In this document: positions 47,013 through 60,355 of the stretch, piece by piece
How positions within the stretch are numbered: the first letter of the stretch is position 1
How the letters are laid out: each line of letters opens with the position of its first letter
Virus record (IMG/VR): IMGVR_UViG_3300024505_000864
Strand: one strand, 5' to 3'
DNA: 64,000 nucleotides
From: an uncultured virus (IMG/VR IMGVR_UViG_3300024505_000864)
Taxonomy: Duplodnaviria > Heunggongvirae > Uroviricota > Caudoviricetes
The notes under the pieces: generated by a model
What the model saw: the letters and a program-made list of their open reading frames with translations, nothing else
Databases searched by the model: none
Told to the model about the DNA's origin: nothing
Made by a program: the position numbers and the translations under genes

Positions 47013-47765
47013 TTATGGAGAAAGTCTTGCTTTATGAAGTCTCTTTTCTTCATAATAATCCCATACATTAGGTGCCCATCTTTTAAGAATAGGTGCAATT
47101 TGTTCAGTAAGTGCTTGAATCTCAAGTTGAGCATCTAGTTTTGCTCTAAGATCCATTAGGTGAAGAGCAGATCTGAGATTAAATGATACTACAAAATTTT
47201 GTCGGATTGCTTGTGCAAGATAATCACGAATGTGCTCTTCGCACATACCCTTTTCATACTTTACAGCATACCTTTTACAACCCTCTAAAATCCAATTAAG
47301 TTCATCATGATAATCTTCTTCTGTCCAATCATATTTTTTACCATAACGATTTACATAAAACCCAGGAGGACGAACGTAAAAAACATCTTCAGTATTAAGT
47401 TCCCCACTTGCAACTTTTACAACTCTTTTTCCAGTATAACGTTGTGATTGAACATCAAAACTTACTCCCACTCTGTGAGTCCTTGCTTGCATCGCAACGT
47501 TATGGACATACCCAGAGACCGAAACGGTAATGCCAGGGTGCTCCAGAGGTCCCCAGTGACCCTTATCATTCGATAGGAGACGTTCTACAATCCATTTGCC
47601 ACACCCAGATGAATTTGGAATGTCTTGAGTATGAATAGGTGTCTCAGAGTAATCACACTTTGCTGCCTGATAAATGACTTGTTCTGGAATTGGATAGCAT
47701 TGTAGCATTACTACTTCCAAATTTTTATCAAGTTCAAGAAGATCTTTTGCTTTAATTGGTTTCAT
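47013..47765 (-). CDS. thyX: Flavin-dependent thymidylate synthase
   Basis: GHWGPLEH, QARTHRVGVSFDVQSQRY, NLRSALHLMDLR..DAQLEI. Confidence 0.9.
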   Translation of the reverse strand: MKPIKAKDLLELDKNLEVVMLQCYPIPEQVIYQAAKCDYSETPIHTQDIPNSSGCGKWIVERLLSNDKGHWGPLEHPGITVSVSGYVHNVAMQARTHRVGVSFDVQSQRYTGKRVVKVASGELNTEDVFYVRPPGFYVNRYGKKYDWTEEDYHDELNWILEGCKRYAVKYEKGMCEEHIRDYLAQAIRQNFVVSFNLRSALHLMDLRAKLDAQLEIQALTEQIAPILKRWAPNVWDYYEEKRLHKARLSP

Positions 47766-48099: not shown

Positions 48100-48137
48100 A
48101 TTTTACATAAAAAAAGGGGGGAAGTCAAGTCCCCCTT
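48100..48137 (-). terminator. Terminator hairpin overlapping a sigma70 promoter
   Basis: GGGGGA-CTTGACT-TCCCCC plus T-run; TTGACT(48123-48128)-N17-TAAAAT(48100-48105). Confidence 0.7.
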
Positions 48138-48141
48138 CATA

Positions 48142-48243
48142 TTATTTTGCTGCTAACAAAGTAGCAAGAGATGCTTGATGACGACGTTCTTCTTTTTGTT
48201 TTTGTTCTTTAATCAATTGAAGTACATTAATAGTTTTAATCAT
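48142..48243 (-). CDS. 33-aa helical peptide, coupled (ATGA overlap) to the DUF4278 peptide
   Basis: MIKTINVLQLIKEQKQKEERRHQASLATLLAAK; GGAGG RBS upstream. Confidence 0.65.
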   Translation of the reverse strand: MIKTINVLQLIKEQKQKEERRHQASLATLLAAK

Positions 48244-48377
48244 TTATGTCCCTCCTTTACAAACTTAACCCCACGATAGGTCTCGTTGTATTGTTGAGGT
48301 TGTTGCATCATTTGTTGTTGATACTCAAGACGTTTTTGGGTATCATACTCGACACCACGATAAACTACTTTAGACAT
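48240..48377 (-). CDS. DUF4278/YRG-motif peptide (45 aa)
   Basis: MSKVVYRGVEYDTQKRLEYQQQMMQQPQQYNETYRGVKFVKEGHK; two YRG motifs; AAGGAG RBS. Confidence 0.85.
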   Translation of the reverse strand: MSKVVYRGVEYDTQKRLEYQQQMMQQPQQYNETYRGVKFVKEGHK

Positions 48378-48411
48378 TAGGGTTGCTCCTTTACTTTTTA
48401 AGGTTAGGTGG

Positions 48412-48453
48412 CGTTCCTTCCGTCGGCTTTTGCGTCCCTTAGTAGGATGAACG
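48412..48453 (-). ncRNA. Glutamine riboswitch-like aptamer 2 (glnA/Downstream-peptide family)
   Basis: CGUUCA-UCCU-ACUA-AGGGA-CGCAAAAGCCGACGGAAG-GAACG; P1 CGUUC/GAACG; upstream of the YRG peptide. Confidence 0.8.
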
Positions 48454-48497
48454 ACCTACTCTTTTTCCACAATAGGTATAGAAAAACATAGGCATTC

Positions 48498-48749
48498 CGT
48501 TCCGAGTCGGCGTACTTCCGTCCTATTTAATTTTAGCACTTTTGAATAAAATCCTTTCGGAGTTCTAATAGCAATCGGTCTTCTGTTCTTTGATTAACTA
48601 CATCGTCGTTTTTAACGATGTCCATTAGTTCCCACACAGTATCACAACTAAGTTTAACTGCATATTCAGTTGCAGTTAGTTGTGAAGTAGAAAAAGAAAG
48701 AAATGGAACCCATGCTAAAAGCAAAAGTGCTTTAGCCATAGGATGAACG
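48498..48749 (-). ncRNA. Glutamine riboswitch-like aptamer 1 with ~210-nt ORF-containing P2 loop
   Basis: CGUUCA-UCCUAU-[loop]-AUAGGA-CGGAAGUACGCCGACUCG-GAACG. Confidence 0.7.
48533..48739 (-). CDS. 68-aa protein with signal-peptide-like N-terminus, nested in aptamer 1
   Basis: MAKALLLLAWVPFLSFS...LSC...QKC; AUG overlaps the P2 stem. Confidence 0.6.
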   Translation of the reverse strand: MAKALLLLAWVPFLSFSTSQLTATEYAVKLSCDTVWELMDIVKNDDVVNQRTEDRLLLELRKDFIQKC

Positions 48750-48757
48750 ATAATTGC

Positions 48758-48786
48758 AGTATACTACCTACAATATATCTAGTCAA
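48758..48786 (-). promoter_or_regulatory. Sigma70-type promoter of the riboswitch locus
   Basis: TTGACT-N17-TATACT, placing +1 just before aptamer 1. Confidence 0.75.
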
Positions 48787-49064: not shown

Positions 49065-49682
49065 TTATCTATTAACTTCCCATGTAATATCAGGATAGGC
49101 TTCAGATACAATTTCTTTTGTAATGTTATACTTAGATTGTAATTTTTTATCTTTAACTAGACACATGATCTCTGCATCCAATGGATGTAAACCTTCTAGC
49201 ATTTGAATAAACATACTTTCACGACGAAGTTTAGGAACTCCTGCATTTCCAGGAACACCATTCTTAGACATTACAAAATTAATTAGTTTTTCATATTCAG
49301 TTCTTAATGTTGTATGTCCTGTTCTAATTTTTTCAGTATAGCTTACAGAAGAACTTTTTTCTACTTCCATTTTTTCAACTTCTTTTCCAATCCTTTCTGA
49401 AATTGATCCAGTTTTTACTAGATCATCAGAAACTGTTCCATATGGAACTTCACCTTCAGGTAACATGGAAATTACATTATCATCAAAATTCCAAATAAAA
49501 ATAGCCTTCAATGAAGGATGTTCATGTTCTTTAAGAATTTGAACTTTTTTTGCATTCGTTCTTTGCTTACTTACCAATTGAAAAACTTCAAAAACAAAAG
49601 GATTATTTGGAAGTTTTTCAATTTTATCTACTGTTGCTTTTGTAGTAGTACTAGTTTTTTTTCTAGTTGTTGTAGAAGTCAT
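49065..49682 (-). CDS. Conserved hypothetical cyanophage protein
   Basis: WNFDD..SMLPEGEVPY, RRESMFIQMLEGLHP.DAE. Confidence 0.75.
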   Translation of the reverse strand: MTSTTTRKKTSTTTKATVDKIEKLPNNPFVFEVFQLVSKQRTNAKKVQILKEHEHPSLKAIFIWNFDDNVISMLPEGEVPYGTVSDDLVKTGSISERIGKEVEKMEVEKSSSVSYTEKIRTGHTTLRTEYEKLINFVMSKNGVPGNAGVPKLRRESMFIQMLEGLHPLDAEIMCLVKDKKLQSKYNITKEIVSEAYPDITWEVNR

Positions 49683-49951: not shown

Positions 49952-50151
49952 CTTTTTTCTCCTGAGATGTTGGTTTTTCTTTTAATAAAGAATTCTATTT
50001 GAAAATTAAATTCCCATCTTAAAATAGAAAATTTTTTTTTCAAACTAAATTTCTTACTTTTATTTTGTTCCCTTTTAGTTTTCTCCCTATGAAGCAGTAG
50101 TTCGACTCCACGATTTCTTTCGTGAATACTATTATTTAGATCTATCATCAA
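49945..50151 (-). CDS. Hypothetical protein
   Basis: NRGVELLL motif; coupled in operon. Confidence 0.5.
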   Translation of the reverse strand: MMIDLNNSIHERNRGVELLLHREKTKREQNKSKKFSLKKKFSILRWEFNFQIEFFIKRKTNISGEKRC

Positions 50152-50399
50152 AGAAGATTATTTTCTTGCAGATATTTAACCGTATCTACACATCCACCAA
50201 GATGCTCAGTATCGTTCATAATAATTTGTGGGAAAGTAGATCCTTGTCCAAATTCTGCATAAAACTCTTCTGCAGTAAAATCTGTACCCAATTCATAACA
50301 AATTACAGGAGTTCCTCTCTTAATACTTAAATCTCCAAGAACCATTTTAATTTTGTCACAGAATGGACATCCAAGTTTTGAATAAATTGTAAAATTCAT
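50148..50399 (-). CDS. nrdC: Glutaredoxin
   Basis: CPFC, STFPQI, GGC. Confidence 0.9.
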   Translation of the reverse strand: MNFTIYSKLGCPFCDKIKMVLGDLSIKRGTPVICYELGTDFTAEEFYAEFGQGSTFPQIIMNDTEHLGGCVDTVKYLQENNLL

Positions 50400-50406
50400 A
50401 GTAATT

Positions 50407-50781
50407 TTAAATTGCTGTATTGTTTTTACGTGGTCTATAAACTCTCAATTCTTGTTTAGAAAGTTGAGTCCTCCATTCTACTATATCACTGTATCTTTGC
50501 AATGTAAAGAACTCCTGTCTGCGAAACCAAGTTTCCCAATTTTCATGTGCTTTAGATCGATTACACTTTTCACATGCACATATAACATTCGTTAAATGAT
50601 CAGTTCCACCTTTAGATTGTGGAATTATATGATCCATTGTTAAATTTTCATCAGATTTACAATAAGCACATTTGTACTCCCATTTTTCTTTAATTGAATT
50701 TTTCCATAATCTTCTAGATTCAGATGTTGAAGAAGTTTCAAGATTATACAAATAATCTTCTGAAGAATTGTAGAGTTGCAT
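50407..50781 (-). CDS. HNH endonuclease-family protein
   Basis: CAYC, DHIIPQSKGG, N...CEKCNRSK. Confidence 0.85.
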   Translation of the reverse strand: MQLYNSSEDYLYNLETSSTSESRRLWKNSIKEKWEYKCAYCKSDENLTMDHIIPQSKGGTDHLTNVICACEKCNRSKAHENWETWFRRQEFFTLQRYSDIVEWRTQLSKQELRVYRPRKNNTAI

Positions 50782-60204: not shown

Positions 60205-60312
60205 AAGTAGTCCATCAGGGAAATGGTGGAGTTACTTATTTCTCTATCACCCTCAGATAGAGACATGAGAGACGTAATTTATACACCCATAGGTCTCGGT
60301 TAACGGGTGTTA
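60205..60312 (-). ncRNA. PhotoRC-II-like structured psbA leader
   Basis: ACACCC/GGGUGU stem, GAGAC/GUCUC pairing, UCUCUAUC/GAUAGAGA stem with GAGGG loop, CCAUUUCCCUGAUGG; directly 5' of phage psbA. Confidence 0.7.
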
Positions 60313-60355
60313 AAAAATGTTTCAAATTGTGAGGAATTCGAAACATTTGCTTACC

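What the first reader, a model, noticed from the sequence alone, without database searches (positions are those of the whole stretch)
48412..48786. Tandem glutamine-riboswitch-like aptamers, one with a complete protein-coding gene nested in its P2 loop
Seen: a TTGACT-N17-TATACT promoter starts a transcript right at CGUUCA-UCCUAU. The partner strand AUAGGA-CGGAAGUA...GAACG lies ~210 nt downstream, and the loop between them is almost exactly the 68-aa ORF 48533-48739. Its AUG overlaps the P2 stem, its stop is 6 nt before the closing strand, and it has no SD. After a spacer hairpin, a second compact aptamer with the same P1 (CGUUC/GAACG) and a short loop precedes a YRG peptide. Known: glnA and Downstream-peptide RNAs are glutamine riboswitches, often tandem and upstream of DUF4278 peptides. 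Inference: ligand binding would bury the nested start codon, while ribosome transit through the loop would melt aptamer 1. That would give a switch that reciprocally controls an internal secreted-type protein and the downstream peptides. I know of no description of such a gene-in-aptamer design.
Basis: partly seen in the sequence, partly recalled or inferred. Interest (0 to 1): 0.92.

Follow-up and report, generated by a model that had tools for sequence, protein, structure and literature searches.

The report
Gene nested inside phage glutamine riboswitch
In this freshwater cyanophage, a real 68-codon gene sits inside one hairpin of a two-core glutamine-sensing RNA leader, so sensing nitrogen status and translating that gene should compete on the same RNA.

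Summary
A promoter-like site is followed by CGUUCA-UCCUAU. The 68-codon ORF (48739-48533) starts inside that P2 strand. AUAGGA-CGGAAGUA follows 6 nt after its stop, then a hairpin spacer, a compact second core, and a DUF4278-like YRG peptide gene.

It is not chance. In a search by the ORF's protein alone, 76 of 78 evaluable viral contigs carry both aptamer halves. The ORF is under purifying selection (dN/dS 0.29). In relatives a second ORF family nests in the other core's P2, and all four presence/absence combinations occur.

The "tandem" reading needs correction. Covariation shows that the P3 strands pair between the two units, not within them. This makes one interlocked two-junction sensor. 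Its outer P1 joins 48749-48745 to 48416-48412. The spacer hairpin caps the inner P1.

Glutamine binding and the reciprocal control of ORF versus peptide are inferred, not shown. The Rfam hit is below threshold (27.8 vs 35 bits). I found no paper describing a gene inside a riboswitch aptamer. This scan has noted the same layout before on other phage DNA. I rate it a new variant of a known kind, of high interest.

The parts
48758..48786 (-). Promoter-like site: TTGACT (48786-48781), 17-nt spacer, TATACT (48763-48758). The predicted start is about 48750-48752.
   Evidence: 10 of 12 matches, not above the shuffle rate on its own. A -10-like hexamer sits at the same place in 43 of 43 distinct relatives' upstream regions. 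The start site was not mapped.
48745..48749 (-). Outer P1, 5' strand (CGUUC).
   Evidence: It is invariant in 19 of 19 sequences. The partner was assigned by strand connectivity. In the nearest-neighbour ensemble, pairing with 48412-48416 has probability 0.65-0.78, against 0.14-0.15 for the cis partner.
48738..48743 (-). P2A 5' strand (UCCUAU). Its last two bases are the A and U of the ORF-A start codon.
   Evidence: It is invariant in all relatives examined.
48533..48739 (-). ORF-A, the nested 68-codon gene. It has a hydrophobic N-terminus, two invariant cysteines (C32, C68) and a conserved WELMDIVKNDD core.
   Evidence: There are 214 relatives in viral contigs. Across 68 distinct sequences the median dN/dS is 0.29, and length changes are in whole codons. 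It has no Pfam or PHROG family.
48600..48621 (-). Conserved hairpin in the middle of ORF-A (8 pairs, 6-nt loop), with almost no synonymous change.
   Evidence: 100% paired in 19 sequences, with one compensated pair (CG to UA).
48521..48526 (-). P2A 3' strand (AUAGGA), starting 6 nt after the ORF-A stop.
   Evidence: It is invariant, while the spacer before it has 22 distinct forms, 0-8 nt long, among 41 distinct units.
48513..48520 (-). Joining strand CGGAAGUA of the outer core. It matches the RF01739 consensus.
   Evidence: compared with the consensus printed.
48505..48512 (-). Shared P3-type helix, strand of unit 1 (CG-CCGA-CU).
   Evidence: It pairs with 48421-48428. The window's CG:CG pair replaces the usual AG:CU pair.
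48498..48502 (-). Inner P1, first strand (GAACG).
48454..48497 (-). 44-nt insert that extends the inner P1 as a hairpin. Most relatives have a 3-4-nt loop here (a few have 5-21 nt).
   Evidence: -19.2 kcal/mol, z -3.87; a linker of 3-4 nt in nearly all relatives. Among the 283 fetched loci it is found only in L124-L127.
48449..48453 (-). Inner P1, second strand (CGUUC).
48435..48447 (-). P2B, a compact hairpin (UCCU-ACUAA-GGGA). In many relatives this loop holds ORF-B.
48429..48434 (-). Joining strand CGCAAA of the inner core. It departs from the consensus CGGAAGUA.
48421..48428 (-). Shared P3-type helix, strand of unit 2 (AG-CCGA-CG).
48412..48420 (-). GAAG joining strand plus the outer P1 3' strand (GAACG).
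   Evidence: a unique match in the window.
48386..48391 (-). Shine-Dalgarno AAGGAG of the downstream peptide gene.
   Evidence: A local CCUU/AAGG hairpin is weak (-2.4 kcal/mol, z 0.76).
48240..48377 (-). 45-aa peptide with two YRG motifs, DUF4278-like (IF17-like).
   Evidence: Pfam DUF4278 at 19.1 bits (cut-off 25.3) and phrog_5049 at E 1e-10. Ten of 12 peptides tested (the window's own plus 11 relatives) hit DUF4278, all below the cut-off.
48142..48243 (-). 33-aa ORF overlapping the peptide's stop (ATGA). It is the last gene of the unit.
   Evidence: A gene is annotated at the same place in S-SRM01. It has no family hit.
48117..48135 (-). Intrinsic-terminator-like hairpin followed by a T run.
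   Evidence: 7 sites found against 0.5 expected in the region. One RNA-library contig ends at 48120, which is a weak hint.

Best explanation
The stretch 48751-48412 (minus strand) is the leader of a small cyanophage operon. The operon runs from a promoter, through a DUF4278/IF17-like peptide gene and a 33-aa ORF, to a terminator.

The leader is one glutamine-I-type sensor built from two three-way junctions that share a P3-type helix.
- The outer junction has the canonical order and consensus: CGUUC-A-P2-CGGAAGUA-P3-GAAG-GAACG. Its P2 hairpin closes around a complete, translated 68-codon gene (ORF-A).
- The inner junction sits where a single aptamer has its P3 loop. It is a circular permutation of the canonical order. 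Its P1 is a hairpin, here extended by a 44-nt insert, and its P2 is compact here but carries a second gene (ORF-B) in many relatives.

The ORF-A start codon is part of the P2 helix at the junction and has no Shine-Dalgarno. The stop lies 6 nt before the returning P2 strand. A folded sensor should therefore hide the start codon, and an initiating or terminating ribosome should unfold the sensor.

Most likely sequence of events (inferred):
1. The first ribosomes translate ORF-A while the 3' two-thirds of the sensor are still being made.
2. Afterwards, folding competes with re-initiation.
3. Glutamine stabilises the fold. This lowers ORF-A translation and, as in the Synechocystis gifB leader, raises translation of the downstream IF17-like peptide.

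Shown: the anatomy, its conservation, that ORF-A is protein-coding, and the inter-unit pairing. Inferred: ligand binding, the direction of control and its size.
For: Anatomy fits the RF01739 consensus strand by strand.

Unbiased recurrence: the ORF-A protein search found 214 relatives in viral contigs, and the best 80 were kept. Two were truncated, and 76 of the remaining 78 have both halves.

Constraint on the non-coding parts, among 41 distinct units:
- The 5' half shows 0.0 pairwise difference.
- The 29-nt 3' half shows 0.036.
- Synonymous sites of the ORF show 0.29.
- The 0-8-nt spacer has 22 distinct forms.

Coding: median dN/dS is 0.29 and indels are in whole codons.

A single canonical aptamer with a local GGC/GCC P3 also hosts ORF-A in its P2 (L145).

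A second family, ORF-B, nests in the other P2. By reading the 44 distinct rows, all 80 kept loci have the CGTTCATCTATG start, and 79 of 80 keep GAAGGAACG (one of these 79, L245, has an extra A before it). P2 around ORF-B varies from 3 to 14 pairs with different solutions, for example UCUAU/AUAGA, UCCC/GGGA (L128) and an 11-pair UCUCAUG... helix (L176).

Interlock:
- Over the 263 of 284 sources that hold both 3' halves, trans pairing is complete in 16 of 17 sequence classes. Cis pairing fails in 6 classes (26 loci), including the window and S-SRM01.
- On 19 distinct sequences, the shared helix is 100% paired with 2 compensated pairs (AU:16 GC:2 CG:1, and UA:10 GC:8), and 0 of 500 shuffles reach this. 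The cis pairs are unpaired in 9 of 18.
- The linker between the units is 3-4 nt in nearly all relatives. Longer linkers, as in the window, are hairpins flush with CGUUC.

Background: glutamine-I riboswitches precede DUF4278/IF17 genes and switch them on with glutamine (PMC6212724; passages read).
Against: - P1 and P2A never vary, so no covariation supports them.
- The only Rfam hit in the window is below the gathering score (27.8 vs 35 bits), and it is the cis reading of unit 2.
- The nearest-neighbour energy of the full interlocked fold is 9.6 kcal/mol above the unconstrained minimum. The shared helix has about zero probability and P2A 0.17-0.2 in that model, which ignores tertiary contacts and ligand.
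- The inner core lacks GUA and GAAG of the consensus and may not bind glutamine.
- ORF-A or ORF-B persist as ordinary genes where the sensor and the peptide gene are lost (L150, L169, L216). The genes therefore do not need the sensor.
- The window's anti-SD pairing is weak.
- The sequences are modestly diverged (pS 0.29), so some conservation reflects relatedness.
- There are no binding, start-site or translation data. The RNA-library contigs show presence only.
Confidence: 0.6

Rival explanations
1. Passenger genes. The sensor is real and controls only the downstream peptide. The P2 loops are simply the places in a conserved, strongly transcribed leader where DNA can be inserted without harm. 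The small ORFs landed there and are shuffled by recombination between phages. Start-codon overlap with P2 reflects phage genome compaction, not selected coupling.
For: - All four combinations of ORF-A and ORF-B presence or absence occur among close relatives. Examples are L004 (none), L006 (B only), L018 (A only) and L011 (both).
- The ORFs survive without the sensor in L150, L169 and L216.
- The sensor halves are lost only together with the peptide gene in those three cases.
- ORF-A has no known function.
Against: - Four different P2 solutions all place the AUG within the first 5-8 nt of the P2 strand, with no SD.
- The ORFs fill the loops to within 0-8 nt, or run into the core (ORF-B ends at the UGA inside GACUGAAGG).
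- Physical exclusion between a ribosome on that AUG and the helix holds whether or not it was selected.
Confidence: 0.25
2. Two independent tandem aptamers. Unit 1 (48749 to 48498) closes on itself around the ORF, and unit 2 (48453 to 48412) is a separate compact aptamer.
For: - cmscan aligns unit 2 in cis, and relatives' compact unit 1 in cis, at 28.9-35.6 bits.
- All four P1 strands are identical, so cis pairing is possible.
- A review counts 157 glutamine doublets as separate units (PMC9481103; passages read).
Against: - The cis P3 pairs are broken in 9 of 18 distinct sequences, while the trans pairs are always kept with compensation. Over the wider set, 6 classes or 26 loci show the same.
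- Strand connectivity then assigns each P1 3' strand to the other unit's 5' strand.
- The inter-unit linker is only 3-4 nt in most relatives.
- The nearest-neighbour ensemble gives cis P1 a probability of 0.14-0.15 (unit 1) and 0.0 (unit 2), against 0.65-0.78 for the outer P1.
Confidence: 0.07
3. Dead relic. Insertion of the ORF destroyed unit 1, and its halves are decaying remnants. Only unit 2 works.
For: Standard scans see only unit 2. P2A shows no covariation.
Against: - Both halves are intact in 76 of 78 loci found by protein alone, and they change about eightfold less than synonymous sites.
- Bases of unit 1 covary with bases of unit 2.
- Unit 2 alone lacks the consensus CGGAAGUA strand, which unit 1 supplies.
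- A single-aptamer relative (L145) keeps ORF-A in P2.
Confidence: 0.03

Closest known systems
Type-1 glutamine riboswitch (glnA RNA, Rfam RF01739), e.g. the Synechocystis gifB (IF17) leader (PMC6212724)
   Same: It shares the conserved strands CGUUCA, CGGAAGUA and GAAGGAACG, the three-helix junction, its position in front of a DUF4278-type gene, and translational control expected to switch on with glutamine.
   Different: Here two junctions are interlocked through a shared P3-type helix. The inner junction is circularly permuted and departs from the consensus. P2 closes around a whole gene whose start codon lies in the helix. The Rfam model scores only 27.8 bits (cut-off 35).
Tandem glutamine riboswitches counted as doublets (PMC9481103: 157 doublets, 4 triplets; Weinberg 2010, PMC2864571)
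   Same: Two glutamine-type units lie side by side in one leader.
   Different: In the passages I read, the literature treats them as separate, pseudo-cooperative units. Here covariation shows inter-unit pairing. Whether the published doublets include this architecture is unknown to me. I could not obtain Ames and Breaker 2011.
Tandem glycine riboswitch (recalled; listed as 'dual aptamer, one expression platform' in PMC9481103)
   Same: Two homologous aptamer cores work as one sensor with a single downstream platform.
   Different: As I recall, the glycine cores dock by tertiary contacts and are not strand-swapped. They contain no coding sequence.
Group I introns with homing-endonuclease ORFs in peripheral loops (recalled; only the search listing of PMC3984707 was seen)
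   Same: A protein gene lies in a loop of a structured RNA that must close around it.
   Different: Those RNAs are ribozymes, not ligand sensors. As I recall, the ORF start is not normally part of a core helix.
Leader-peptide attenuation (trp-type) and translated uORF switches (recalled)
   Same: A ribosome on an ORF inside a leader decides which RNA fold forms.
   Different: The leader peptides there are signals, not conserved proteins, and no metabolite aptamer is involved.

Membership tests
Glutamine riboswitch type 1 (RF01739) | Covariance-model score at or above the gathering score (35 bits). | tested here: not met
   The window scores 27.8 bits for the compact unit 2 only, and nothing reached gathering in the whole-window scan. 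The outer core cannot be scored because of the 211-nt loop and the interlock. Relatives' compact unit 1 scores 35.6, 34.2 and 28.9 bits.
Glutamine riboswitch type 1 (RF01739) | P1 formed by CGUUC and GAACG flanking the core. | tested here: met
   Both strand pairs are present and invariant. The choice of partner rests on connectivity and on the ensemble, not on covariation.
Glutamine riboswitch type 1 (RF01739) | A P2 hairpin directly after CGUUCA and directly before CGGAAG. | tested here: met
   Six pairs (UCCUAU with AUAGGA) close a 211-nt loop. They are paired in 19 of 19 sequences but never vary. P2 around ORF-B in relatives varies and stays paired.
Glutamine riboswitch type 1 (RF01739) | The conserved joining strands CGGAAGUA and GAAG. 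| tested here: met
   The outer core has both (48520-48513 and 48420-48417). The inner core has CGCAAA and a single C instead.
Glutamine riboswitch type 1 (RF01739) | A P3 hairpin formed within one aptamer. | tested here: not met
   The cis pairs are unpaired in 9 of 18 sequences. The P3-type pairs form between the units.
Glutamine riboswitch type 1 (RF01739) | Selective binding of L-glutamine. | not testable with these tools
   This needs in-line probing, ITC or NMR.
Glutamine-II riboswitch (Downstream-peptide, RF01704) | Covariance-model score at or above the gathering score (33 bits). | tested here: not met
   15.2 bits, E 0.4.
DUF4278 / IF17-like peptides (PF14105) | Pfam score at or above the cut-off (25.3 bits). 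| tested here: not met
   19.1 bits, E 0.0017 for the window's peptide. Ten of 12 peptides tested (the window's own plus 11 relatives) hit at 14.3-23.0 bits, all below the cut-off. The resemblance is consistent across them, but formal membership is not met.
Independent tandem riboswitches | Each unit folds on its own. | tested here: not met
   (inter-unit covariation). The linker is 3-4 nt in most relatives.

The most novel reading that the evidence does not exclude
The phage leader is a two-way ribosome-riboswitch toggle. At low glutamine the sensor stays open and ribosomes make the nested microproteins (ORF-A here, ORF-B in relatives). At high glutamine the interlocked double sensor locks, buries their start codons and opens the IF17-like peptide gene. 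One RNA would thus produce opposite outputs for nitrogen-poor and nitrogen-rich host cells. Translation itself would reset the sensor.
Probability: 0.3. Interest if true: 0.9.

Novelty: new variant of a known kind. Interest (0 to 1): 0.8.

Why it matters
- Riboswitch aptamers are taken to be compact non-coding domains in front of genes. Here a complete, selected protein gene lies inside the aptamer, with its start codon in a core helix. The sensor itself is two strand-swapped cores.
- Standard covariance-model scans miss it, so phage riboswitches are probably under-counted. A 2017 survey found only two in cyanophages (PMC5473149; passage read).
- It offers a natural test of how translation and ligand sensing compete on one RNA.
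- It points to cyanophage control of host nitrogen metabolism through IF17-like peptides.
- Cultured relatives with the ORF-B form exist (S-SRM01, DSL-LC02, DSL-LC03), so the idea is testable.

Tried and rejected
I built no joined sequence.
- ORF-A function:
  - No Pfam or PHROG family.
  - ESM Atlas returned only its own viral cluster.
  - The AlphaFold model has pLDDT 59.5 and pTM 0.26, too weak for a fold search.
  - tblastn found nothing in 50,697 phage records.
  - Among 185,579 species genomes there was one hit, a 3.8-kb contig of a lake MAG with the same layout, likely phage DNA.
- ORF-A and ORF-B as paralogues: hhalign gave probability 5%, E 0.007. It aligned the two cysteines over 42 columns. 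This is suggestive only.
- A helix between the two ends of ORF-A (AGCACUU with AAGUGCU): 94% paired, but with only one-sided changes and no better than shuffles.
- Expression platform: the local SD hairpins are weak and not above shuffles.
- RNA evidence:
  - 20 RNA-library runs from 19 studies hold at least half of the sampled words.
  - The four runs I laid are contigs. They show presence, not transcription, starts or strand.
  - Contigs break at 48603-48632 and 48749, where related phages diverge.
- The window's own assembly is not held. The nearest record (G001, 93% of words shared) gives the same single 27.8-bit hit.
- The first dN/dS run was ungapped and therefore wrong. It was replaced by a codon alignment.
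- Ames and Breaker 2011 is not held, so I cannot say whether it mentions inter-unit pairing.
Full report
**What is in the sequence**

All genes around the finding run on the minus strand. Reading 5' to 3' on that strand, the features are:

- TTGACT (48786-48781), a 17-nt spacer, then TATACT (48763-48758).
- CGUUCA (48749-48744), then UCCUAU (48743-48738).
- A 68-codon ORF from the ATG at 48739 to the TAA at 48535-48533.
- Six bases of spacer, then AUAGGA (48526-48521) and CGGAAGUA (48520-48513).
- CG-CCGA-CU (48512-48505), a C, then G-GAACG (to 48498).
- A 44-nt spacer (48497-48454).
- CGUUCA (48453-48448), then UCCU-ACUAA-GGGA (48447-48435) and CGCAAA (48434-48429).
- AG-CCGA-CG (48428-48421), then GAAG-GAACG (48420-48412).
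- AAGGAG (48391-48386), then a 45-aa ORF with two YRG motifs (48377-48240).
- An overlapping 33-aa ORF (48243-48142) and a terminator-like hairpin (48135-48117).

The promoter match (10 of 12) is no better than shuffles on its own. However, a -10-like hexamer stands at the same distance in all 43 distinct relatives' upstream regions.

**Rfam**

At gathering thresholds the window has no glutamine-riboswitch hit. The only hit is PhotoRC-II at 60228-60322. A permissive scan of 751 nt finds RF01739 at 48455-48408 with 27.8 bits (gathering 35, E 9e-4), and RF01704 at 15.2 bits.

The unit around the ORF cannot be found by such a model because of its 211-nt loop. I did not make a loop-deleted sequence.

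Natural relatives stand in for that test. In Synechococcus phages DSL-LC02, S-SRM01 and DSL-LC03, the first unit is compact and scores 35.6, 28.9 and 34.2 bits. It keeps the same CGUUCAUC start and the same strand after P2. In S-SRM01 it matches the window from GACGGAAGUA through GGAACG.

**Recurrence**

Of these, 29 have a 203-216-nt loop between CGTTCA-TCCTAT and ATAGGA. That loop is filled by a 66-69-codon homologue of the ORF.

Because that scan presupposed the 3' half, I repeated the search with the ORF's protein alone:

- There were 214 relatives, and the best 80 were kept.
- Two of the 80 are cut by contig ends.
- Of the remaining 78, 76 have both halves.
- The exceptions are L150 and L169. 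There the 3' half and the downstream peptide gene are gone. In L169 the P1 strand also carries a change.

Among 41 distinct units, conservation is as follows:

| Region | Pairwise difference or variation |
|---|---|
| 5' half | 0.0 |
| 29-nt 3' half | 0.036 |
| Spacer between stop and AUAGGA | 22 distinct forms, 0-8 nt |
| Synonymous sites of the ORF | 0.29 |

The non-coding halves are therefore under constraint.

**The ORF is a gene**

Across 68 distinct sequences (from 132 copies), median pN is 0.106, pS is 0.286 and dN/dS is 0.29. Length differences are in whole codons. An earlier ungapped estimate was wrong and is discarded.

Invariant residues include two cysteines and the ELMDIVKN core. 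The N-terminus (M-T/A-K, then about 12 hydrophobic residues) looks like an export signal by eye, but I had no tool to test that.

The search for function found little:

- No Pfam or PHROG family.
- No lead from the ESM Atlas.
- A low-confidence fold with three helices, pLDDT 59.5.
- No homologue in 50,697 deposited phage genomes.
- One homologue among 185,579 species genomes, on a short lake-MAG contig with the same layout.

**A second nested gene**

In relatives, the second unit's P2 loop often holds a different 50-59-codon ORF, here called ORF-B. Its ATG lies in CGUUCA-UCU-AUG-G. It reads through the returning P2 strand and the core, and it stops at the UGA of GACUGAAGG.

Searching by ORF-B protein gave 187 relatives, and the best 80 were kept. 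Reading the 44 distinct rows:

- All 80 start with the CGTTCATCTATG motif.
- 79 of 80 keep GAAGGAACG (one of these 79, L245, has an extra A before it).
- The exception, L216, has also lost the peptide gene.

P2 around ORF-B ranges from 3 to 14 pairs. Divergent members use other sequences that still pair. L128 uses UCCC/GGGA, and L176 has an 11-pair helix starting UCUCAUG.

All four combinations of ORF-A and ORF-B presence or absence occur, for example in L004, L006, L018 and L011. A profile comparison of ORF-A with ORF-B aligns the cysteine pairs but is weak, at probability 5% and E 0.007.

**The two units are interlocked**

Notes from earlier agents of this scan on other genomes spoke of interlocked cores, and the minimum-energy fold paired the first CGUUC with the last GAACG. 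I therefore tested this directly.

Each unit has the segment xx-CCGA-yy where a single aptamer has its P3 hairpin. I tabulated these over the 263 of 284 sources that hold both segments:

- Pairing of unit 1's xx with unit 2's yy, and of unit 2's xx with unit 1's yy, is complete in 16 of 17 sequence classes. The one exception, L092, is equally imperfect in cis.
- Pairing within a unit fails in 6 classes (26 loci): AG..CG|CG..CU, CG..CU|AG..CG (the window and S-SRM01), GG..GG|CC..CC, GG..CG|CG..CC and two more.
- Loci are not independent events, but at least four different double changes are involved.

On an alignment of 19 distinct sequences of the window's own class, the formal count gives:

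| Structure tested | Result |
|---|---|
| Trans (shared) helix | 100% of cells paired; two compensated pairs (AU:16 GC:2 CG:1, and UA:10 GC:8); 11 compensated cells; 0 of 500 shuffles as high |
| Cis alternative | 9 of 18 unpaired at both variable pairs; no compensation |

Strand connectivity then assigns the parts as follows:

- The outer junction is the first CGUUC, P2A, CGGAAGUA, the shared helix, GAAG and the last GAACG. This is the canonical order and consensus.
- The inner junction is the middle GAACG-loop-CGUUC hairpin, P2B and CGCAAA. It is a circular permutation lying where a single aptamer has its P3 loop.

Three further observations fit this:

- L145 is a single aptamer with a local GGC/GCC P3 that hosts ORF-A.
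- The linker between the middle GAACG and CGUUC is 3-4 nt in nearly all relatives.
- In the window, that linker is replaced by a hairpin flush with CGUUC (-19.2 kcal/mol, z -3.87).

P1 and P2A never vary, so they carry no covariation evidence. In a nearest-neighbour ensemble:

- The outer P1 has probability 0.65-0.78.
- The inner P1 has 0.44.
- The cis P1s have 0.14-0.15 (unit 1) and 0.0 (unit 2).
- P2A has only 0.17-0.2.
- The shared helix has about 0.
- The fully constrained fold lies 9.6 kcal/mol above the minimum.

That model knows nothing of tertiary contacts or ligand.

**How it most likely works**

Background from the literature: glutamine-I riboswitches precede DUF4278/IF17 genes in cyanobacteria and raise their translation when glutamine binds, probably by freeing the ribosome-binding site (PMC6212724; passages read).

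The window's 45-aa peptide hits DUF4278 below the cut-off (19.1 vs 25.3 bits). Of 12 peptides tested (the window's own plus 11 relatives), 10 hit DUF4278 in the same way. In most relatives an anti-SD CUCUUUA abuts the last GAACG. In the window only a weak CCUU/AAGG pairing is seen.

The ORF-A start codon has no SD and forms part of P2 at the junction. The stop lies 6 nt (0-8 nt in relatives) before the returning strand, within a terminating ribosome's footprint. That footprint estimate rests on established knowledge and was not tested here.

Folding of the sensor and translation of ORF-A are therefore mutually exclusive on one molecule. The rest is inference:

1. Early ribosomes translate ORF-A before the 3' strands exist.
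2. Later, folding competes with re-initiation.
3. Glutamine tips the balance towards the folded state, lowering ORF-A translation and raising peptide translation.

The three decayed cases (L150, L169, L216) show that the ORFs can live without the sensor. They also show that the sensor is kept only together with the peptide gene. This favours the view that the peptide is the primary target, and it leaves the passenger reading open.

**Expression data**

Twenty RNA-library runs from 19 studies hold at least half of the sampled words. Four were laid. They are contigs and cover the unit. One 507-nt contig ends at 48120, beside the predicted terminator. They cannot show transcription, strand or start.

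**Literature**

I searched for:

- glutamine riboswitch with cyanophage
- glnA RNA with phage and ORF
- glnA RNA with Downstream-peptide and tandem
- riboswitch, ORF and 'within the aptamer'
- DUF4278 with phage
- glutamine riboswitch with tandem
- riboswitch, cyanophage and nested

I read passages of PMC9964418, PMC12379486, PMC6212724, PMC2864571, PMC9481103 and PMC5473149. None mentions a gene inside the aptamer or inter-unit pairing. The 2022 review lists 157 doublets as separate units. The 2017 survey found only two cyanophage examples. Ames and Breaker 2011 could not be read.

This scan has reported the same layout on other phage genomes. My tests here agree with those notes, except that the proposed paralogy of the two microproteins got only weak support.

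**Verdict**

The nested gene and the glutamine-riboswitch kinship hold. 'Tandem' should read 'interlocked'. The reciprocal control remains a reasoned hypothesis.
- Novelty: a new variant of a known kind.
- Interest: 0.8.

Noticed in passing
window 60228-60322 (-): PhotoRC-II RNA (RF01717) at 80.5 bits, well above its gathering score of 39. It is the only Rfam family at gathering level in the window.
   Followed up: no
window 48600-48621 (-): An 8-pair hairpin in the middle of ORF-A lies over the WELMDIVKNDD codons. These codons show almost no synonymous change in 68 sequences. One compensated pair (CG to UA) was seen. An RNA-level role inside the loop is possible.
   Followed up: partly
L010-L203, about 10-30 nt upstream of CGTTCA: In most relatives the -10 box is flanked by an inverted repeat (e.g. 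AGGGG-TATAATAAT-CCCCT). The window lacks it. It could be a protein-binding site or a 5' hairpin of the transcript.
   Followed up: no
L150, L169, L216: These are three natural decay states. The peptide gene and the sensor's 3' strands are lost together, while ORF-A and/or ORF-B remain as ordinary genes followed by a terminator.
   Followed up: partly
L145:690-960: A single, canonical-looking glutamine aptamer with a local GGC/GCC P3 carries ORF-A in its P2 and sits directly in front of the YRG peptide gene. It may be a simpler or ancestral form of the layout.
   Followed up: partly
ORF-B in L204-L283 and L001-L003: All ORF-B proteins end in DAKAD or a near variant. These residues are encoded by the conserved core strand GACGCAAAAGCCGAC-UGA, so the same letters serve as sensor and as codons. 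In DSL-LC03 this ORF is not annotated.
   Followed up: partly
window 47013-47765 (-), 49065-49682 (-), 50148-50399 (-), 50407-50781 (-): Neighbouring genes. The 250-aa ORF is syntenic with the annotated thymidylate synthase of S-SRM01. There is also a DUF6433 protein (121 bits), a small CPFC-motif protein and an HNH-motif protein. The last two were read by eye and were not tested.
   Followed up: no
L285 (genome contigs, 3.8-kb contig of a lake MAG labelled Acetobacteraceae): It carries the same phage layout: the end of ORF-A, the sensor strands, ORF-B and the YRG peptide. It is probably phage DNA binned into a bacterial MAG.
   Followed up: partly
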